Assembly (NCBI GenBank): GCA_964493715.1
Contig: CAZBPC010000008.1
Span: 9,714 to 73,713, forward strand
Length of the DNA stretch: 64,000 nt
From: an uncultured archaeon
GTDB lineage: Archaea; Asgardarchaeota; Lokiarchaeia; Sigyniarchaeales; SOKP01
Direction: 5' to 3'
The notes under the pieces were generated by a model. That model searched no databases. It saw only the letters and a list, made by a program, of their open reading frames with translations, and was not told the DNA's origin. Within the stretch, counting starts at the first letter, position 1. Each line of letters starts with the position of its first letter. Below are positions 33,513 through 38,117 of the stretch, piece by piece. The position numbers and the translations under genes are program-made.

Positions 33513-34022
33513 ATGATGAAAAGGAAATTACTACTCTTATTAATGTTGGTTTTATTTGTCTTCATTCCGACAAGAACCTATGCATTTGATCATATCGATG
33601 AAATCAATAATGGAATCTCTGTTTTTTTTCTCATCGATCTAAATGCTTCTGAAACCATTGAAATTAATGTAACTCATACAGGAAGCGGAAATTTCGAGTT
33701 ATTTTTATTTGATACTCGTCCTGTAGATTCCTATATCTATTATGATAATACTCTTAATCCTGAAATTTATAATCACGCAATAAATTATAGCATCGGTGAT
33801 AATCCATATATTAATTATACTGTAAGTTCACTTCGAATTTACTACATCCAATTGGTCTTATTAGAGAATGGACCAGACACCTTCATCCTATATTGTAATA
33901 AGGATTTAGTCAGATATTATCTTCCAACAATACCCGGCTATAATGTGGAATTGATTTTGTTAACACTTGTAGCATCCTTATCGATAATCTTGATCTTTAG
34001 AAAGAAAAAGTTTAAGATCTAA
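33513..34022 (+). CDS. Secreted surface protein with Loki-CTERM-like sorting tail
   Basis: N-terminal signal peptide; C-terminal IPGY + TM helix + basic RKKKFK. Confidence 0.75.
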   Translation: MMKRKLLLLLMLVLFVFIPTRTYAFDHIDEINNGISVFFLIDLNASETIEINVTHTGSGNFELFLFDTRPVDSYIYYDNTLNPEIYNHAINYSIGDNPYINYTVSSLRIYYIQLVLLENGPDTFILYCNKDLVRYYLPTIPGYNVELILLTLVASLSIILIFRKKKFKI

Positions 34023-34162
34023 TTTCCAAGAAATTAAAAAATAATTTTTTTAATTCATAAACATAATTATTACGATATTGCTATTTTATGAATCAGCAAT
34101 GTATATATACTTATCCAACTAATTTTAATTGCAATTCATTTAATTAAAAAAGTGAAACATCC

Positions 34163-34783
34163 ATGAAATTGTATGATAAAATAAACGCTAGTTATTTTTC
34201 ATTTATTGGATTGGTTATTTTTGTAATTGGTTTGGTTCCCGCGATAATAGTTCATACAGATTTTAGTTTCTTTGTCACTCATATAAGCCATCTTGGAACA
34301 CCATCCAATGGATTATATATTTTCTTTAATACTTGCTGGTTCATAACTGGAATATTCATGATCTTCTTTCTATTAGGGTTCACCTATTATTTAAAAGAAA
34401 AAGGAGCAAGTGGAAAAAGTGCTTGGATCTCTTTTATTTTCAGCTTTCTTTCAGCTGTTGGTATATTGGGATTATCAATTTTCAATAGCGAAGAAGCACC
34501 AGATATGCATCTTTTAGCCGAATATTTATTCTTCTTTACTGGTATATTATACTTATTTTTATATGCGGCAATCGAGAGAAAATTATCAGATTTTTCTAAG
34601 GTTCAAGTATTTTTTAACATCATCATATCATTGTTCTTCATTCTCTATTTGGTCATGATTATATTGGATAAAATAAATCCTGGATTTGCACCTGAATTTC
34701 AAGCCTTTTCCGAATGGTTATTCTTGTTTTCAAATCTGTTTTGGTTTCTCGAAAATGGATTTTACATGTTGAAACACAAATAA
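34163..34783 (+). CDS. DUF998-like membrane protein
   Basis: ISHLG, FN, five TM helices, H...., EW motif. Confidence 0.65.
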   Translation: MKLYDKINASYFSFIGLVIFVIGLVPAIIVHTDFSFFVTHISHLGTPSNGLYIFFNTCWFITGIFMIFFLLGFTYYLKEKGASGKSAWISFIFSFLSAVGILGLSIFNSEEAPDMHLLAEYLFFFTGILYLFLYAAIERKLSDFSKVQVFFNIIISLFFILYLVMIILDKINPGFAPEFQAFSEWLFLFSNLFWFLENGFYMLKHK

Positions 34784-35061: not shown

Positions 35062-36248
35062 TTGATGAAAGATACAGAAGAAATTGAGCTTAAAGATGTC
35101 GATTTGTTTGCTGAATACCTTGAGTTTCAAATGTTACCCCAGATGGTAGTCTCTGCCGCTCAAGCTACGTTACCAGGCATCGGAAAGGCTGAATGGAAAG
35201 ATGTGAAGTTTAAACTTGACTTGAATTTTCCGGGTAAAATTGAAACTATTGAATTTGTTCGCTCTAAAGGCAAGAAAGTTACTATTGGAGGTGAAGTTGT
35301 GCCTCCTTTCTATAATTTTCTCGGACTTGATAAACGTAATCCCAATCCTCCACTTGTTACGTATGACGTATTCGATATGGGTTCTAAAATGATGCTTCCA
35401 AAACCCATTAAGCAAGAGTATGGAGAAGTATTACAACATCCTGCTGAATGGGCTAAATTCGCAGTTGATAAATTCGGTGCTCAATGCATTACTTTTCACT
35501 CTCTTGAAATTGATCCTGCCATGGGTGATGCACCAGTAAGTCAATCCGTGAAATACTTAGAAGATATTTTACAAGCTGTAGATGTACCCGTCATTATTGG
35601 ATGTTCGGGTAATAAAAAGAAAGATAAAGAATTATTCGAAGCCACAGCTCCGATAACAGAAAGTGAAGTATTGATGTTATCTGCAGCAGATAAAGCCACC
35701 TGGGAGGATGTAATCCCCCTAGCAGTTAAATATGACCATAATTGCTTGTTATGGACGAGTTTGGACCTCAACAATCAAATTAAGATGAATAAAGATGCCC
35801 TTGAACTAGGACTCCCACGTAATAGGATTGTAATGGATCCTACCTGCGCAACAGCGTAATTTAAATCTCTTAAATTGCTGCGATTTTAGGCTACGGGATG
35901 GAGTATAGTTTTAGCATCTACCAAAGAATGCGAGTTGCTGGTCTTTTAGGTGAGGAAGATTTAGCTTACCCAATTAGTGGGGGAACAACTAATGCTTGGG
36001 GAGCTCGTGAAGCATGGATGAGTGAAAAGAAAGTTCCTGAATGGGGTTTACGACAATATAGAGGTCCAATTTGGGAGATTATTAATGCTCTTTCATTAAG
36101 CCTGGTGGGTTTAGATTTAGCCATGATGTTCCATCCAGTTTCAGCTAAATATGTGAAAGAAATCACGAGTCAATTTTTTGCCGAAATACCTAAAGTAATG
36201 GACAATTTGGGATATTACGACTGGGTTTCTGCTCGTTTGAAAAAATAA
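35062..36248 (+). CDS. cdhD: Acetyl-CoA decarbonylase/synthase delta subunit (corrinoid Fe-S protein small subunit); two exons 35062-35852 and 35885-36248; start possibly ATT at 35026
   Basis: V.IGGE..PPFY.F, P.EWAK..V.KFGA, VDVP.IIG.SG, IVMDPT..|LGYG.EYS, AW.AREAW, G..WE, MFHP; removing 32 nt joins the two ORFs into a 384-aa frame. Confidence 0.92.
35853..35884 (+). other. Predicted 32-nt archaeal bulge-helix-bulge (BHB) intron in cdhD mRNA
   Basis: Central helix CGCA(35847-50)/TGCG(35879-82), 3-nt bulges ACA and ATT, inner hairpin AATTTAA/TTAAATT; canonical cuts give GCA AC|T TTA GGC, in frame. Confidence 0.85.
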
Positions 36249-36374: not shown

Positions 36375-37346
36375 TCAGGACATAACATTGGAATCCGGTC
36401 CTGAGTGAGAAAATGATTTTAAGGTTTCAAGTAATTGTCGTCCTTGTTCTCCTTCTTTCAATCTTATTTCGACCTTACAGGGGCATTTTTTTTTCCTTGC
36501 AAATAGTTCATCCGAATTCACTTTATAGTTAATCTTTTTGCCATCTCTTGATCCCCTTAAGTTTAACAAGTCTATTATAGGAAATGGATAACCATAGGAA
36601 TCTTCTGAGCATGAGCTATAGATATTTCTTGCTTTTTTTATGCTCACATTTGGCCCAATATCTAATAAAATTCTCCCAACAGATTCATAAGGTATAATTT
36701 TTAACTTACCATGAGCGATGATTCTATGGGTGGTAACCAAAATGTATCCCGATCGTACCTTAAGAGAATAATTTTTAGGAATTTCTTGCATAATAGTTGC
36801 ATCAAAATAATATATAATCTTCTCTCCGTTATTGAAACAATACTTTTCGAGGATATATGTATCCATCATCTTGATTCCTTCATTACCAAAAATCTTTATC
36901 AAATTATTTCGTAATTCGGAATAAAGGGCTATTTTAAAAAACTTGGGATTCAATTGAAAAACTTCTCCAACTATATCAAAAAATTCATTATCAGAAAGAG
37001 AAGAATTGATTTTTAGATTGTATAATTGTTTGAGGATAACTTTTTTTGATGGTTTTGCTCGGCTTAGCTCATTTTTAATCATATCTATTATCTGATTTTC
37101 ATCCATTTTGCTAAGTGTATCAGTCCTATACTTCGGGAAACTAGGACTCTTTCGATATCTATTGAATAAGCACAAACCAATTACACCAATAAAAACTGAA
37201 GAAGGAATCATGACTCTTATTATAGGACTTCTAATGAAATCATAAGGATCCATAGATATTTTCGTGAAACCATAAACAATAATCGCAATTGCTATAAAGA
37301 ATAATATGGCCCCAATTTTAGCCTGTATTTTCAAACTATAATTCAC
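36375..37346 (-). CDS. Hypothetical membrane protein (2 N-terminal TMs, possible C-terminal PH-like domain)
   Basis: Hydrophobic N-terminus; GEKII....G.ILVT.HRII pattern. Confidence 0.65.
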   Translation of the reverse strand: MNYSLKIQAKIGAILFFIAIAIIVYGFTKISMDPYDFIRSPIIRVMIPSSVFIGVIGLCLFNRYRKSPSFPKYRTDTLSKMDENQIIDMIKNELSRAKPSKKVILKQLYNLKINSSLSDNEFFDIVGEVFQLNPKFFKIALYSELRNNLIKIFGNEGIKMMDTYILEKYCFNNGEKIIYYFDATIMQEIPKNYSLKVRSGYILVTTHRIIAHGKLKIIPYESVGRILLDIGPNVSIKKARNIYSSCSEDSYGYPFPIIDLLNLRGSRDGKKINYKVNSDELFARKKKCPCKVEIRLKEGEQGRQLLETLKSFSHSGPDSNVMS

Positions 37347-37469
37347 TTAATGATTTTTTAAGAAAAAAGAGTATTTAAGGATTTCACTCCGTTTTACCAC
37401 TAAAAAAATCTTTTTACCGGGTAAATAAGAAATTTTAGTTGTAACTTTATGATTTTTTATCGAATTATG

Positions 37470-37514
37470 AATTTGGGTTATTACGACTGGGTTTCCGCTC
37501 GTTTGAAGAAATAA
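37470..37514 (+). repeat. Direct repeat of the last 45 bp of cdhD (copy of 36204-36248)
   Basis: 42/45 identical; the three differences are all synonymous (GGA/GGT, TCT/TCC, AAA/AAG). Confidence 0.93.
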
Positions 37515-37652
37515 GAATTTATTTATTTTTTTTTTATCATTAGAATTCCAAGTTCTGAATTGTAGAATTTCAAATTTCGTTTATCTTCAGATAAATTTTT
37601 ATCTTAACTTTACTTATTTCGTAATTAACATCAAACACTTTAGTGAAAATCA

Positions 37653-38117
37653 ATGGTAGAATTATCTCTAAAAAGCCCAACTTTTAAACATATGGGTGAA
37701 ATCCCGAGTAAATATACTTGTGAAGGAGAAAATATAAATCCTCCATTAGAAATATCTGGTGTGCCACAAAATGTAAAAAGTTTGGTTTTGATAATGGAAG
37801 ATATTGATCCTCCAATTGGAGGAACAATAACTCATTGGGTTATTTGCCACCTAGATCCGAAAACTAATAAGATACTCGAAGGGGATTCATTAGAGAATGC
37901 AATTGTTGGAAAAAGAATGTTAGGGAAACATATGTATATGGGTCCTTGTCCTCCAAAAGGTCAGCACAGGTATGTCTTCAAATTGTTTTGTTTAGACGAA
38001 AAATTACCCTTAGATCCGAATAGTAATAAAAAGAAGGTATTGCAAGAAATTGAAGGTCATATTATTGAACAAACAAAACTAATAGGTGTTTATCAAAAAA
38101 AGAAAAAAACAAAATAA
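37653..38117 (+). CDS. YbhB/YbcL (PEBP / Raf kinase inhibitor-like) protein
   Basis: IPSKYTC.G.NINPPL, D.D.P....HW, Y.GPCPP..HRY.F.L. Confidence 0.93.
   Translation: MVELSLKSPTFKHMGEIPSKYTCEGENINPPLEISGVPQNVKSLVLIMEDIDPPIGGTITHWVICHLDPKTNKILEGDSLENAIVGKRMLGKHMYMGPCPPKGQHRYVFKLFCLDEKLPLDPNSNKKKVLQEIEGHIIEQTKLIGVYQKKKKTK

What the first reader, a model, noticed from the sequence alone, without database searches (positions are those of the whole stretch)
35839..35899. tRNA-type BHB intron inside the protein-coding gene cdhD (Wood-Ljungdahl pathway)
Seen: cdhD is split into two ORFs in different frames, with a TAA at 35857. The interruption folds as a canonical BHB: central helix CGCA(35847-50)/TGCG(35879-82) and 3-nt bulges ACA(35851-53) and ATT(35883-85). 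The inner stem is GC/GC plus AATTTAA/TTAAATT; the outer pairing G-U plus CCT/AGG is imperfect. Cutting after the 2nd nt of each bulge removes 35853-35884 (32 nt: AGCGTAATTTAAATCTCTTAAATTGCTGCGAT). This gives ...GAT CCT ACC TGC GCA AC|T TTA GGC TAC GGG, i.e. DPTCATLGYG, with the spacing of the conserved CdhD/AcsD DPTxxxLGYG motif. Structure-predicted cuts and the frame-restoring length agree independently. Established: BHB mRNA introns are best known from crenarchaeal cbf5. Inference: an Asgard mRNA for a central carbon enzyme is spliced. A competing pairing (CAGC 35852-55 / GCTG 35877-80) could destroy the BHB and make splicing regulatable.
Basis: partly seen in the sequence, partly recalled or inferred. 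Interest (0 to 1): 0.92.

Follow-up and report, generated by a model that had tools for sequence, protein, structure and literature searches.

The report
tRNA-type intron inside cdhD gene
A 32-base insert that breaks an Asgard archaeon's only cdhD gene has the shape that the tRNA-splicing enzyme cuts, so the messenger RNA is very probably spliced, which is rare in archaea.

Summary
Bases 35853-35884 (32 nt) interrupt a CdhD-family gene exactly where 27 genomes of the same genus are continuous. Removing them joins Pfam profile positions 180 and 181.

The insert and its flanking exons form a relaxed bulge-helix-bulge (BHB). The cuts it predicts, 2 nt after each strand of the 4-bp central helix, coincide with the boundaries set by the orthologues.

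A pattern built from exon sequence alone recovered 20 distinct inserts of 30, 32, 33 or 36 nt at this site. Of their cells, 97.8% pair, against 25-44% in slid controls, and 8 of 16 pairs show compensatory changes, including exon-intron pairs. Both exons evolve under strong purifying selection, with dN/dS 0.03-0.06.

The genome has two EndA paralogues. At least three more genes carry such inserts: its only rtcB, a LeuRS-like gene and a VWA gene.

Direct RNA proof is missing. One metatranscriptome contig skips exactly these 32 nt, but it comes from a relative only about 92% identical.

Verdict: an EndA/RtcB-spliced mRNA intron, confidence about 0.8. It is a new member of the kind known from crenarchaeal cbf5. 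The proposed regulatory competing helix is not supported.

The parts
35062..35852 (+). Exon 1 of the CdhD-family gene. The start codon is uncertain: TTG at 35062 or ATG at 35065. The exon ends with the first two bases (AC) of a Thr codon.
   Evidence: ORF list. Pfam CdhD profile 7-180. Orthologue alignment.
35853..35884 (+). 32-nt BHB intron. It is absent from 27 genomes of the same genus, and its length shifts the frame.
   Evidence: Variants of 30, 32, 33 and 36 nt occur at the same site in 27 loci, 20 of them distinct.
35885..36248 (+). Exon 2. Its first base completes the Thr codon, followed by L-G-Y-G and the rest of the protein up to the stop at 36246-36248.
   Evidence: Pfam CdhD profile 181-227 starting at 35886. 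dN/dS is 0.03-0.06 between intron-bearing alleles.
35843..35846 (+). Outer helix, 5' strand (exon 1, CCUG). It pairs with 35887-35890.
   Evidence: Paired in 97.5% of cells. The Thr codon's third base is C in 13 of 15 intron-bearing exon variants against 5 of 32 intronless ones.
35847..35850 (+). Central 4-bp helix, 5' strand (exon 1, CGCA). It pairs with 35879-35882.
   Evidence: Pair 1 is C-G, U-A or U-G. Pair 4 is A-U or G-C, which are compensatory changes.
35851..35853 (+). 5' bulge (ACA). The predicted cut is between 35852 and 35853.
   Evidence: Unpaired in the consensus structure. The cut position equals the boundary given by the orthologues.
35854..35878 (+). Inner helix and hairpin of the intron. 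G54-C78 and C55-G77 pair, then stem 35859-35864 pairs with 35870-35875 around the 5-nt loop 35865-35869 (AUCUC). The in-frame stop TAA lies at 35857-35859.
   Evidence: Six of the 8 inner pairs show changes on both sides. All 20 variants have an in-frame TAA.
35879..35882 (+). Central helix, 3' strand (intron, UGCG).
35883..35886 (+). 3' bulge (AUUU, 4 nt in the conserved form). The predicted cut is between 35884 and 35885.
   Evidence: The boundary comes from the orthologues.
35887..35890 (+). Outer helix, 3' strand (exon 2, UAGG, within the Leu-Gly codons).

Best explanation
Bases 35853-35884 are an archaeal bulge-helix-bulge intron inside the coding sequence of the genome's only delta-type CdhD gene.

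In the transcript, exon-1 bases 35847-35850 pair with intron bases 35879-35882 to form the 4-bp central helix. An exon-exon outer helix (35843-46 with 35887-90) and an intron hairpin flank it. This leaves a 3-nt bulge on the 5' side and a 3-4-nt bulge on the 3' side.

The splicing endonuclease EndA, here with two paralogues and so probably the broad-specificity (alpha-beta)2 type, cuts 2 nt after each central-helix strand. RtcB joins the exons and probably circularises the 32-mer.

The joined mRNA restores one Thr codon and the reading frame. It encodes a full-length CdhD of 384 residues. Unspliced mRNA stops at TAA 35857.

What is shown:
- the insert and its exact boundaries;
- the conserved, covarying structure;
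- purifying selection on both exons;
- the presence of the enzymes;
- the same architecture in at least three other genes of this genome.

What is inferred: cleavage and ligation in vivo, and their efficiency.
For: 1. Boundaries. Twenty-seven genomes of the same genus are continuous exactly across 35852|35885. Four genomes carry an insert there: G000 and G001 with 32 nt, G016 and G056 with 36 nt. This covers 34 of 41 genus genomes with a match; 3 are unresolved. Pfam profile positions 180|181 abut.

2. Structure. RNAalifold on 20 distinct variants returns outer helix, central 4-bp helix, two bulges and inner hairpin, with no guidance from me. These variants were retrieved with a pattern that specifies exon bases only.
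- 97.8% of 320 cells pair, against 24.7-44.4% when partners are slid.
- 8 of 16 pairs have changes on both sides.
- 0 of 500 shuffles reach the observed covariation score.
- Central-helix pairs between exon and intron covary: C-G to U-A in 4 variants, A-U to G-C in 2.

3. Exon synonymous sites that pair are constrained only in intron-bearing alleles (not corrected for phylogeny).
- Ala third base is A or G in 15 of 15 against 10 of 32.
- Thr third base is C in 13 of 15 against 5 of 32.
- Fisher p is about 5e-6 for each.

4. Cut sites 2 nt after each central strand equal the orthologue boundaries for inserts of all four lengths. This is the rule reported for cbf5 introns (PMC2738675, passages read).

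5. It is not a pseudogene. dN/dS for G000-G001 is 0.059 in exon 1 and 0.055 in exon 2, at dS about 0.5. For G000-L055 it is 0.036 and 0.031.

6. Machinery. There are two EndA-domain ORFs of 208 and 206 aa. Asgard EndA is reported as (alpha-beta)2 with the L1 loop (PMC5829648, passages read). There is one rtcB locus. Twelve of 27 ARAGORN tRNA calls have introns of 11-39 nt.

7. The same design occurs elsewhere in G000, each case exact against intronless orthologues.
- rtcB, 29 nt.
- A LeuRS-like gene, 30 nt.
- A VWA_CoxE-like gene, 30 nt.
- The only rtcB is interrupted in G000 and G001 yet is under purifying selection, dN/dS 0.047 and 0.116. This is hard to explain unless such introns are spliced.

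8. RNA. One contig of metatranscriptome run X1​8 (1,008 nt, depth 6.3) skips exactly 35853-35884. All three distinct DNA sequences at least 90% identical to the window carry the intron.
Against: No RNA of this strain was seen. The X18 contig differs from the window at 80 of 1,008 bases and matches none of the genomes I hold. The nearest intronless relative, G022, is 88.5% identical. The contig could therefore come from an intronless strain. RNA libraries can also hold DNA.

The fold of the single sequence is not significant (z = -1.27).

The 3' bulge is 4 nt in the conserved form, so the motif is relaxed.

Some variants have one mismatch in the central helix: C.A in the G056 type and G.A in the two 30-nt 'type C' variants.

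A loose genome-wide scan for BHB plus ORF merging gave 736 hits at the true cut geometry against 707-754 at displaced cuts, so there is no enrichment. Only a strict form was enriched: 5 against 1 at E <= -11.

The ligase gene is itself interrupted. The argument from machinery is therefore partly circular.
Confidence: 0.8

Rival explanations
1. The gene is broken and not repaired at the RNA level. It is either a pseudogene, or a gene split into two polypeptides, with the second starting at ATG 35898.
For: There are two ORFs in different frames with a stop at 35857. An ATG lies 13 nt after the insert. Most relatives (27 genomes) lack the insert.
Against: dN/dS is 0.03-0.06 in both halves among intron-bearing alleles, so it is not a pseudogene. 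The break lies inside the invariant motif D-P-T-C-A-T|L-G-Y-G. The L-G-Y-G codons lie upstream of the ATG, yet they are kept in all 4 genus genomes that were found by an exon-1 protein search. A split gene would not explain covarying exon-intron pairs. It would not explain the constrained synonymous exon sites. Nor would it explain why inserts of 30, 32, 33 and 36 nt all keep the same cut geometry.
Confidence: 0.05
2. EndA cuts the BHB, but the exons are rarely or never rejoined. The element would then act as a cleavage switch or a selfish insert that lowers CdhD output, not as a productive intron.
For: A conserved BHB alone shows recognition by EndA and does not show ligation. A BHB in a 5' UTR that affects expression is reported in Haloferax (PMC7714728, passages read). 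The rtcB gene is itself interrupted.
Against: This is the only delta-type CdhD copy found in a genome scored 100% complete. Exon 2 is under purifying selection in its own frame. The exact restoration of codon and frame for four insert lengths is what productive splicing predicts.
Confidence: 0.07
3. Ribosomes bypass the gap, as in phage T4 gene 60. Take-off would be at GCG 35854-56 before the stop TAA, with landing at GCG 35880-82, which is in frame with exon 2.
For: In the window the take-off and landing codons are identical, a stop follows the take-off codon, and a hairpin begins there. Thirteen of 20 variants have identical take-off and landing codons.
Against: Seven of 20 variants lack a matching landing codon, including the two closest relatives, G001 and L055. 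The matches follow from the inner-helix sequence AGC...GCU. Bypass would add 2-3 variable residues inside an invariant motif. It does not explain the covariation of the central and outer helices. To my recollection bypassing has not been described in archaea; I did not search for this.
Confidence: 0.03
4. The insert is an assembly or sequencing artefact.
For: Contigs of two other MAGs, G023 and G019, end 3 nt before this site.
Against: A 5,444-nt contig of DNA run X1 crosses the insert with 2 differing letters. Related inserts occur in 4 genus genomes, 5 named genome records and 18 metagenome contigs.
Confidence: 0.01

Closest known systems
BHB intron in cbf5 pre-mRNA of Crenarchaeota (Desulfurococcales, Sulfolobales). 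Source: PMC2738675, abstract and passages read. Watanabe et al. 2002 was seen only as a citation.
   Same: Both are short introns inside a protein-coding gene, at a conserved motif. Both have an unconventional or relaxed BHB and predicted cuts between the 2nd and 3rd bulge residues. Both depend on a hetero-oligomeric EndA. Both show a patchy distribution that implies gain and secondary loss.
   Different: The host gene differs: a metabolic CdhD-family gene, not an RNA-modification enzyme. The phylum differs: Promethearchaeota (Asgard). The organisms here are mesophilic and live in sediment. cbf5 splicing was shown with cDNA and in vitro cleavage. Here it is inferred.
Archaeal tRNA and rRNA BHB introns cut by EndA and joined by RtcB.
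   Same: Both have the helix-bulge-helix-bulge-helix design with a 4-bp central helix and cuts 2 nt into each bulge. The intron size falls in the same range as the 11-39-nt tRNA introns that ARAGORN calls in this genome.
   Different: The outer helix here is made of two coding exons, not a tRNA stem. The exon sequence is therefore constrained both by the protein and by the pairing.
BHB intron in the 5' UTR of HVO_1309 mRNA, Haloferax volcanii (PMC7714728, passages read).
   Same: It is an mRNA substrate of the splicing endonuclease outside tRNA and rRNA.
   Different: It lies in a UTR and does not interrupt a reading frame. That paper states that cbf5 was the only other mRNA BHB intron reported up to 2020.
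HAC1/XBP1 unconventional mRNA splicing in eukaryotes, by Ire1 cleavage and RtcB or Trl1 ligation. Recalled; the abstract of PMC8718801 mentions RtcB in XBP-1 splicing.
   Same: It works alike. A small intron inside a coding sequence is removed by a protein endonuclease at stem-loop sites and joined by a tRNA ligase, which changes the reading frame of the product.
   Different: The endonuclease is Ire1, not EndA/TSEN. The recognition motif is twin stem-loops. There is no evidence of homology between the introns.
Translational bypassing in phage T4 gene 60 (recalled).
   Same: A stop follows directly after a take-off codon, a hairpin is present, and a matching in-frame codon lies downstream.
   Different: The match is not conserved (13 of 20 variants). 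Bypass would insert extra residues. See the rival explanations.

Membership tests
Archaeal BHB intron (EndA-cut, RtcB-joined) | A 4-bp central helix flanked by two bulges on opposite strands | tested here: met
   CGCA 35847-50 pairs with UGCG 35879-82. The 5' bulge is 3 nt. The 3' bulge is 4 nt in the consensus, or 3 nt in an alternative pairing. This is the relaxed form..
Archaeal BHB intron (EndA-cut, RtcB-joined) | Cuts after the 2nd bulge nucleotide on each side give a functional product | tested here: met
   The predicted cuts at 35852|35853 and 35884|35885 equal the boundaries defined by 27 intronless genus genomes and by Pfam positions 180|181. The same holds for the 30-, 33- and 36-nt variants.
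Archaeal BHB intron (EndA-cut, RtcB-joined) | Flanking outer and inner helices kept in evolution | tested here: met
   The outer helix is paired in 97.5% of cells. The inner helices are paired in 97.5% and 99.2%, and 6 of 8 inner pairs show changes on both sides. RNAalifold predicts the same structure de novo.
Archaeal BHB intron (EndA-cut, RtcB-joined) | The host encodes the splicing endonuclease and the ligase | tested here: met
   There are two PF01974 ORFs, at 102 and 68 bits. There is one PF01139 locus at 484 bits, itself interrupted by a 29-nt BHB insert.
Archaeal BHB intron (EndA-cut, RtcB-joined) | The intron is absent from mature RNA (spliced junction, circular intron) | tested here: inconclusive
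   One RNA-run contig skips exactly 35853-35884, but it is only about 92% identical to the window. Its own DNA state is unknown.
Archaeal BHB intron (EndA-cut, RtcB-joined) | Cleavage by purified EndA in vitro | not testable with these tools
   This needs a bench assay.
Group I or group II self-splicing intron | A ribozyme core of hundreds of nucleotides | tested here: not met
   The insert is 32 nt. There is no Rfam match at E <= 1 in 35600-36100.
Programmed ribosomal frameshift | The two frames overlap, so that one shift of +1 or -1 links them | tested here: not met
   The upstream frame stops at 35857. The downstream frame is closed by TAA 35871-73. There is no overlap.
Translational bypass (T4 gene 60 type) | Matched take-off and landing codons kept in evolution | tested here: not met
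   The codons are identical in 13 of 20 variants. They are absent in 7, including the nearest relatives.
CdhD/AcsD (PF03599) protein | A match over Pfam's gathering score, colinear over the family profile | tested here: met
   Exon 1 scores 117.7 bits over profile 7-180. Exon 2 scores 43.2 bits over profile 181-227. The cut-off is 24.8 bits. The role in the Wood-Ljungdahl pathway was not tested.

The most novel reading that the evidence does not exclude
The cdhD intron may be one of a population of 29-36-nt BHB micro-introns that come and go in protein-coding genes of this Promethearchaeota genus.

At least four genes are affected in this genome: cdhD, rtcB, a LeuRS-like gene and a VWA gene. 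A second cdhD site is occupied in other lineages.

The only rtcB gene is one of the hosts. Synthesis of the RNA ligase would therefore depend on its own activity. That is a self-referential circuit that could set the level of all BHB splicing, including that of a central carbon enzyme and an aminoacyl-tRNA synthetase.

This would make protein-enzyme mRNA splicing a regular layer of gene expression in the closest archaeal relatives of eukaryotes.
Probability: 0.5. Interest if true: 0.92.

Novelty: new member of a known kind. Interest (0 to 1): 0.85.

Why it matters
Introns of the tRNA type inside archaeal protein-coding sequences are known from essentially one gene, cbf5 of Crenarchaeota. A 2020 study states this explicitly (PMC7714728, passage read). 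Four full-text searches found no report of such introns in Asgard protein genes. Subscription-only papers and supplements were not visible to me.

If the splicing is real, three things follow.

1. Genome annotation of Asgard MAGs miscalls such genes as frameshifted or split. Metabolic reconstructions can then wrongly drop them, here an acetyl-CoA synthase/CO dehydrogenase subunit.

2. The EndA/RtcB pathway acts on mRNAs for metabolism, translation and RNA repair in the archaeal lineage nearest to eukaryotes. That bears on the origin of non-spliceosomal mRNA splicing (HAC1/XBP1) and on how introns spread.

3. The patchy distribution, with exact presence or absence among close relatives, gives a natural system for studying gain and loss of protein-spliced introns.

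Tried and rejected
Single-sequence folding as evidence. z = -1.27, so I did not use it as support.

Loose genome-wide scan. It required a central helix, 2 inner pairs and 4 outer pairs, with removal merging two ORFs. It gave 736 hits against 707-754 with displaced cuts, which is no enrichment. An energy-ranked version was also not enriched. Only the strict version with enforced geometry and length <= 50 nt showed 5 against 1 at E <= -11.

Candidates from that scan that stayed unresolved, because Pfam was uninformative:
- C9:60585-60631(+)
- C27:18971-19001(-)
- C2:119230-119277(+)
- C23:39444-39485(+)
- C9:3137-3170(-)
- C36:27160-27183(-)

I do not count these as introns.

RNA runs. X19 laid nothing. 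X20 laid one 237-nt contig away from the site. Neither says anything about splicing.

Matching the X18 contig's differing letters to genomes I hold. The aim was to learn whether its source carries the intron. The best agreement was 21 of 38 listed positions (L055 and L061), so no source was identified. Forty-one further differing positions were not shown by the tool.

Rfam gave no family.

Frameshifting was rejected from the stop codons. Bypassing was rejected. The competing helix was rejected.

Supplementary files of papers were not opened. They may list further archaeal mRNA introns that I could not see.
Full report
**What is in the sequence**

The window is G000:C8:9714-73713. Between 35062 and 36248 lie two ORFs in different frames, 35062..35859 and 35898..36248.

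Both match Pfam CdhD (PF03599). The first covers profile positions 7-180 and ends at residue 264. The second covers positions 181-227 and starts at the codon at 35886. The family profile therefore runs straight across the gap.

- CGCA lies at 35847-50 and TGCG at 35879-82.
- The in-frame stop TAA lies at 35857-59.
- The 32 bases at 35853-35884 read as written.

The downstream frame is closed by TAA 35871-73, so a single ribosomal frameshift cannot connect the ORFs.

**The boundaries, from relatives**

I searched the 41 genomes of the genus with the exon-1 protein and read the DNA at the site. Thirty-four genomes have a match.
- In 27 the gene is one open frame of about 398 codons. The DNA is continuous exactly between the bases homologous to 35852 and 35885.
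- Four carry an insert at that very point: G000 and G001 with 32 nt, G016 and G056 with 36 nt.
- Three are unresolved. In G023 the contig ends 3 nt before the site. In G021 and G052 the match does not reach the site.

The insert is real DNA. A 5,444-nt contig of DNA run X1 crosses it with 2 differing letters.

**More variants, retrieved without reference to the intron**

I scanned two collections with a pattern that specifies only the exon codons on either side, M-D-P-T-C-A-T and (L)-G-Y-G, with a free gap of 10-40 nt.
- It found 5 named genome records. Their titles read Promethearchaeota, Promethearchaeia and Hermodarchaeota MAGs, plus one 'uncultured archaeon'.
- It found 18 metagenome contigs.

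Together with the four genus genomes this gives 27 loci. Twenty are distinct sequences, with inserts of 30, 32, 33 or 36 nt. All 20 contain an in-frame TAA.

One caveat applies. The pattern fixes the L-G-Y-G codons, so their conservation in these rows is by ascertainment. It is independent only in the four genus genomes, which were found by protein search.

**The structure**

RNAalifold on the MAFFT alignment of the 20 variants (A1) predicts the following, without input from me:
- a 4-bp outer helix between the two exons;
- the 4-bp central helix between exon 1 and the 3' end of the intron;
- a 3-nt bulge on the 5' side and a 4-nt bulge on the 3' side;
- an inner helix, leading through an internal loop to a 6-bp hairpin with a 5-nt loop.

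I counted pairs on the same structure.
- 97.8% of 320 cells form standard pairs, against 24.7-44.4% when the 3' partners are slid by 1-3 columns.
- 8 of 16 pairs have changes on both sides.
- 0 of 500 shuffles reach the observed covariation score.

The exon-intron central helix itself covaries.
- Its first pair is C-G in 14 variants, U-A in 4 and U-G in 2.
- Its last pair is A-U in 18 and G-C in 2.

The exon changes are synonymous: TGC to TGT, and GCA to GCG.

Mismatches exist. There is C.A in one variant type (G056) and G.A in two 30-nt variants.

The 3' bulge is 4 nt in the consensus.

**Cut sites**

In every variant the positions 2 nt after each central-helix strand are exactly the boundaries given by the intronless orthologues. 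Removal restores the Thr codon and the frame, whatever the insert length. Cuts between the second and third bulge residue are the rule described for cbf5 introns (PMC2738675, passages read).

For the window alone I estimated how often such a coincidence arises by chance. My loose BHB definition is met at about 1.3e-4 per start and length in this genome. Two boundary choices would restore the protein. That gives about 3e-4. By itself the fold is unremarkable (z = -1.27).

**Selection**

Among intron-bearing alleles both exons are under strong purifying selection.
- G000-G001: dN/dS is 0.059 in exon 1 and 0.055 in exon 2, at dS about 0.5.
- G000-L055: 0.036 and 0.031.

Synonymous exon positions that pair in the BHB are constrained only when the intron is present.
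- The Ala third base is A or G in 15 of 15 distinct intron-bearing exon variants, against 10 of 32 intronless ones.
- The Thr third base is C in 13 of 15 against 5 of 32.
- Unpaired synonymous sites (Pro, Gly) vary freely in both groups.

The Fisher p values of about 5e-6 are not corrected for relatedness.

G000 has no second delta-type CdhD. The other PF03599 hits, on C53 and C48, match only profile positions 268-385. A CdhC gene is present on C4.

**Machinery and sister cases**

G000 encodes two EndA-domain ORFs. This fits the (alpha-beta)2 type with the L1 loop that is reported for Asgard archaea and is linked to broad substrate range (PMC5829648, passages read). ARAGORN finds only 27 tRNAs in this complete genome, 12 of them with introns of 11-39 nt.

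The search for RtcB showed that the single rtcB locus is itself split at profile positions 47|48. A 29-nt insert lies between ...G-G-V-G-Y and D-I-N-C-G-V-R. It has a perfect central helix UUGG/CCAA, 3-nt bulges and an inner hairpin.
- Of 30 genus loci read, only G000 and G001 have the insert. The other 28 are continuous at exactly the predicted cuts.
- Its exons are under purifying selection between G000 and G001, with dN/dS 0.047 and 0.116.

A strict scan of the genome was modestly enriched: 5 hits at E <= -11 against 1 in each of four displaced-cut controls. Its top hits included two further cases, which I then verified.
- A 30-nt insert in a LeuRS-like class-I synthetase (C44:26027-26056). 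The Pfam tRNA-synt_1g profile runs 46|48 across it. It is present in 7 of 29 informative genus loci, with a covarying hairpin.
- A 30-nt insert in a VWA_CoxE-like gene (C28:34412-34441) that restores an ATG codon. It is present in 5 of 20 loci, as 30 or 33 nt. The central helix changes from CGCA/UGUG to AGCA/UGCU.

While aligning cdhD I also found a second insert site, after the base homologous to window 35711. It is occupied by 30 nt in L045, L053, L054 and L058. It again has a covarying central helix (GAAG/CUUC, GAUG/CGUC) and hairpin. The window lacks that one.

An organism whose only RNA ligase gene carries such an insert, under purifying selection, almost certainly splices these inserts.

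**RNA evidence**

Of three metatranscriptome runs laid, one (X18) has a 1,008-nt contig that joins 35852 to 35885 and skips exactly the 32 nt. It differs from the window at 80 of 1,008 positions and matches none of the genomes I hold.

All three distinct DNA sequences that are at least 90% identical to the window carry the intron. The nearest intronless relative, G022, is 88.5% identical. The contig is therefore more likely a spliced transcript than not. It could still come from an intronless strain. I count it as a hint only.

**Rivals**

- Pseudogene or split protein. This is contradicted by selection on both halves, by the break inside an invariant motif, and by the covarying RNA structure.
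- Bypassing of the T4 gene 60 type. It looks possible in the window, with GCG-TAA take-off and an in-frame GCG landing. The codon match holds in only 13 of 20 variants and fails in the two nearest relatives. Bypass would also add 2-3 residues.
- Cleavage without ligation. I cannot exclude it with these tools, but it fits poorly with selection on exon 2.
It shares two pairs with the inner helix. Its two private pairs break whenever they vary.

**History**

On a protein tree of 46 cdhD rows the intron state is patchy. The intronless state needs at least 6 changes, of which 3 are forced by well-supported branches. The 32-nt type forms one clade, with support 100/98.

The variants share their ends and a hairpin-loop consensus, so they look homologous. 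Repeated exact loss, or spread between strains, are both possible. I did not test direction.

**Comparison with what is known, and novelty**

The element works like the cbf5 mRNA intron of Crenarchaeota and like tRNA introns. It meets every sequence-level criterion of that family that I could test. Excision in RNA remains inconclusive.

A 2020 paper states that cbf5 was then the only BHB intron reported in an archaeal coding mRNA, besides the Haloferax 5'-UTR case that paper itself describes (PMC7714728, passage read). A 2026 preprint on Asgard tRNA introns does not mention mRNA at all (term search only, zero occurrences of 'mRNA'). My four full-text searches found no report of such introns in Asgard protein genes.

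I therefore class it as a new member of a known kind. It has unusual interest because of the lineage, the metabolic host gene, and its company in the same genome.

**Verdict**

Confidence that the mRNA is spliced by EndA/RtcB is 0.8. Interest is 0.85.

Noticed in passing
G000:C2:12136-12164 (minus strand), outside the window; locus L070/L080: The genome's only rtcB (RNA ligase) gene is interrupted by a 29-nt BHB insert between G-G-V-G-Y and D-I-N-C-G-V-R. The central helix is UUGG/CCAA. Only G000 and G001 of 30 genus loci carry it. dN/dS between the two is 0.047 in exon 1 and 0.116 in exon 2. The ligase would need its own activity to be made.
   Followed up: yes
G000:C44:26027-26056 (+), outside the window; locus L073/L110: A 30-nt BHB insert lies in a LeuRS-like class-I aminoacyl-tRNA synthetase, between Y-P-M-G-Y-D and S-F-G-L-P-A-E. 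It is present in 7 of 29 informative genus loci and is 29 nt in G056. The hairpin covaries.
   Followed up: yes
G000:C28:34412-34441 (+), outside the window; locus L072/L140: A 30-nt BHB insert lies in a VWA_CoxE-like gene. Its removal restores an ATG (Met) codon. It is present in 5 of 20 genus loci, as 30 or 33 nt, with compensatory changes in the central helix.
   Followed up: yes
Homologous to window 35711|35712; loci L045, L053, L054, L058: A second intron site exists in cdhD of other lineages. It is a 30-nt BHB insert between W-E-E-V and I-P, with covarying central helix and hairpin. It is absent from the window.
   Followed up: partly
L003 (G023:C83) and L012 (G019:C10): Contigs of two other MAGs end at the same base, 3 nt before the cdhD intron site. 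In G019 a second contig (L038) overlaps and is intronless. This may reflect mixed intron-bearing and intronless strains that break the assembly.
   Followed up: partly
G000 whole genome: ARAGORN calls only 27 tRNA genes in a genome scored 100% complete, 12 of them with introns of 11-39 nt. Many tRNA genes are probably too interrupted to be called.
   Followed up: no
G000: C9:60585-60631(+), C27:18971-19001(-), C2:119230-119277(+), C23:39444-39485(+), C9:3137-3170(-), C36:27160-27183(-): These are further BHB-like inserts whose removal would merge two ORFs. Pfam gave no decision. Some may be adjacent genes.
   Followed up: partly
window 33513-34783 and 36375-38117: The neighbours of cdhD are small membrane or unknown ORFs and a 154-aa ORF on the + strand. 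No other cdh genes lie beside it. CdhC is on contig C4 and the other CdhD-family hits are on C53 and C48.
   Followed up: partly
All cdhD intron variants (alignment A1, columns 28-38): The hairpin top is conserved as UAA-A-N-N-U-C-UUA across insert types that otherwise differ. The VWA intron has a similar AAUUC loop. A shared origin or a bound factor is possible.
   Followed up: no
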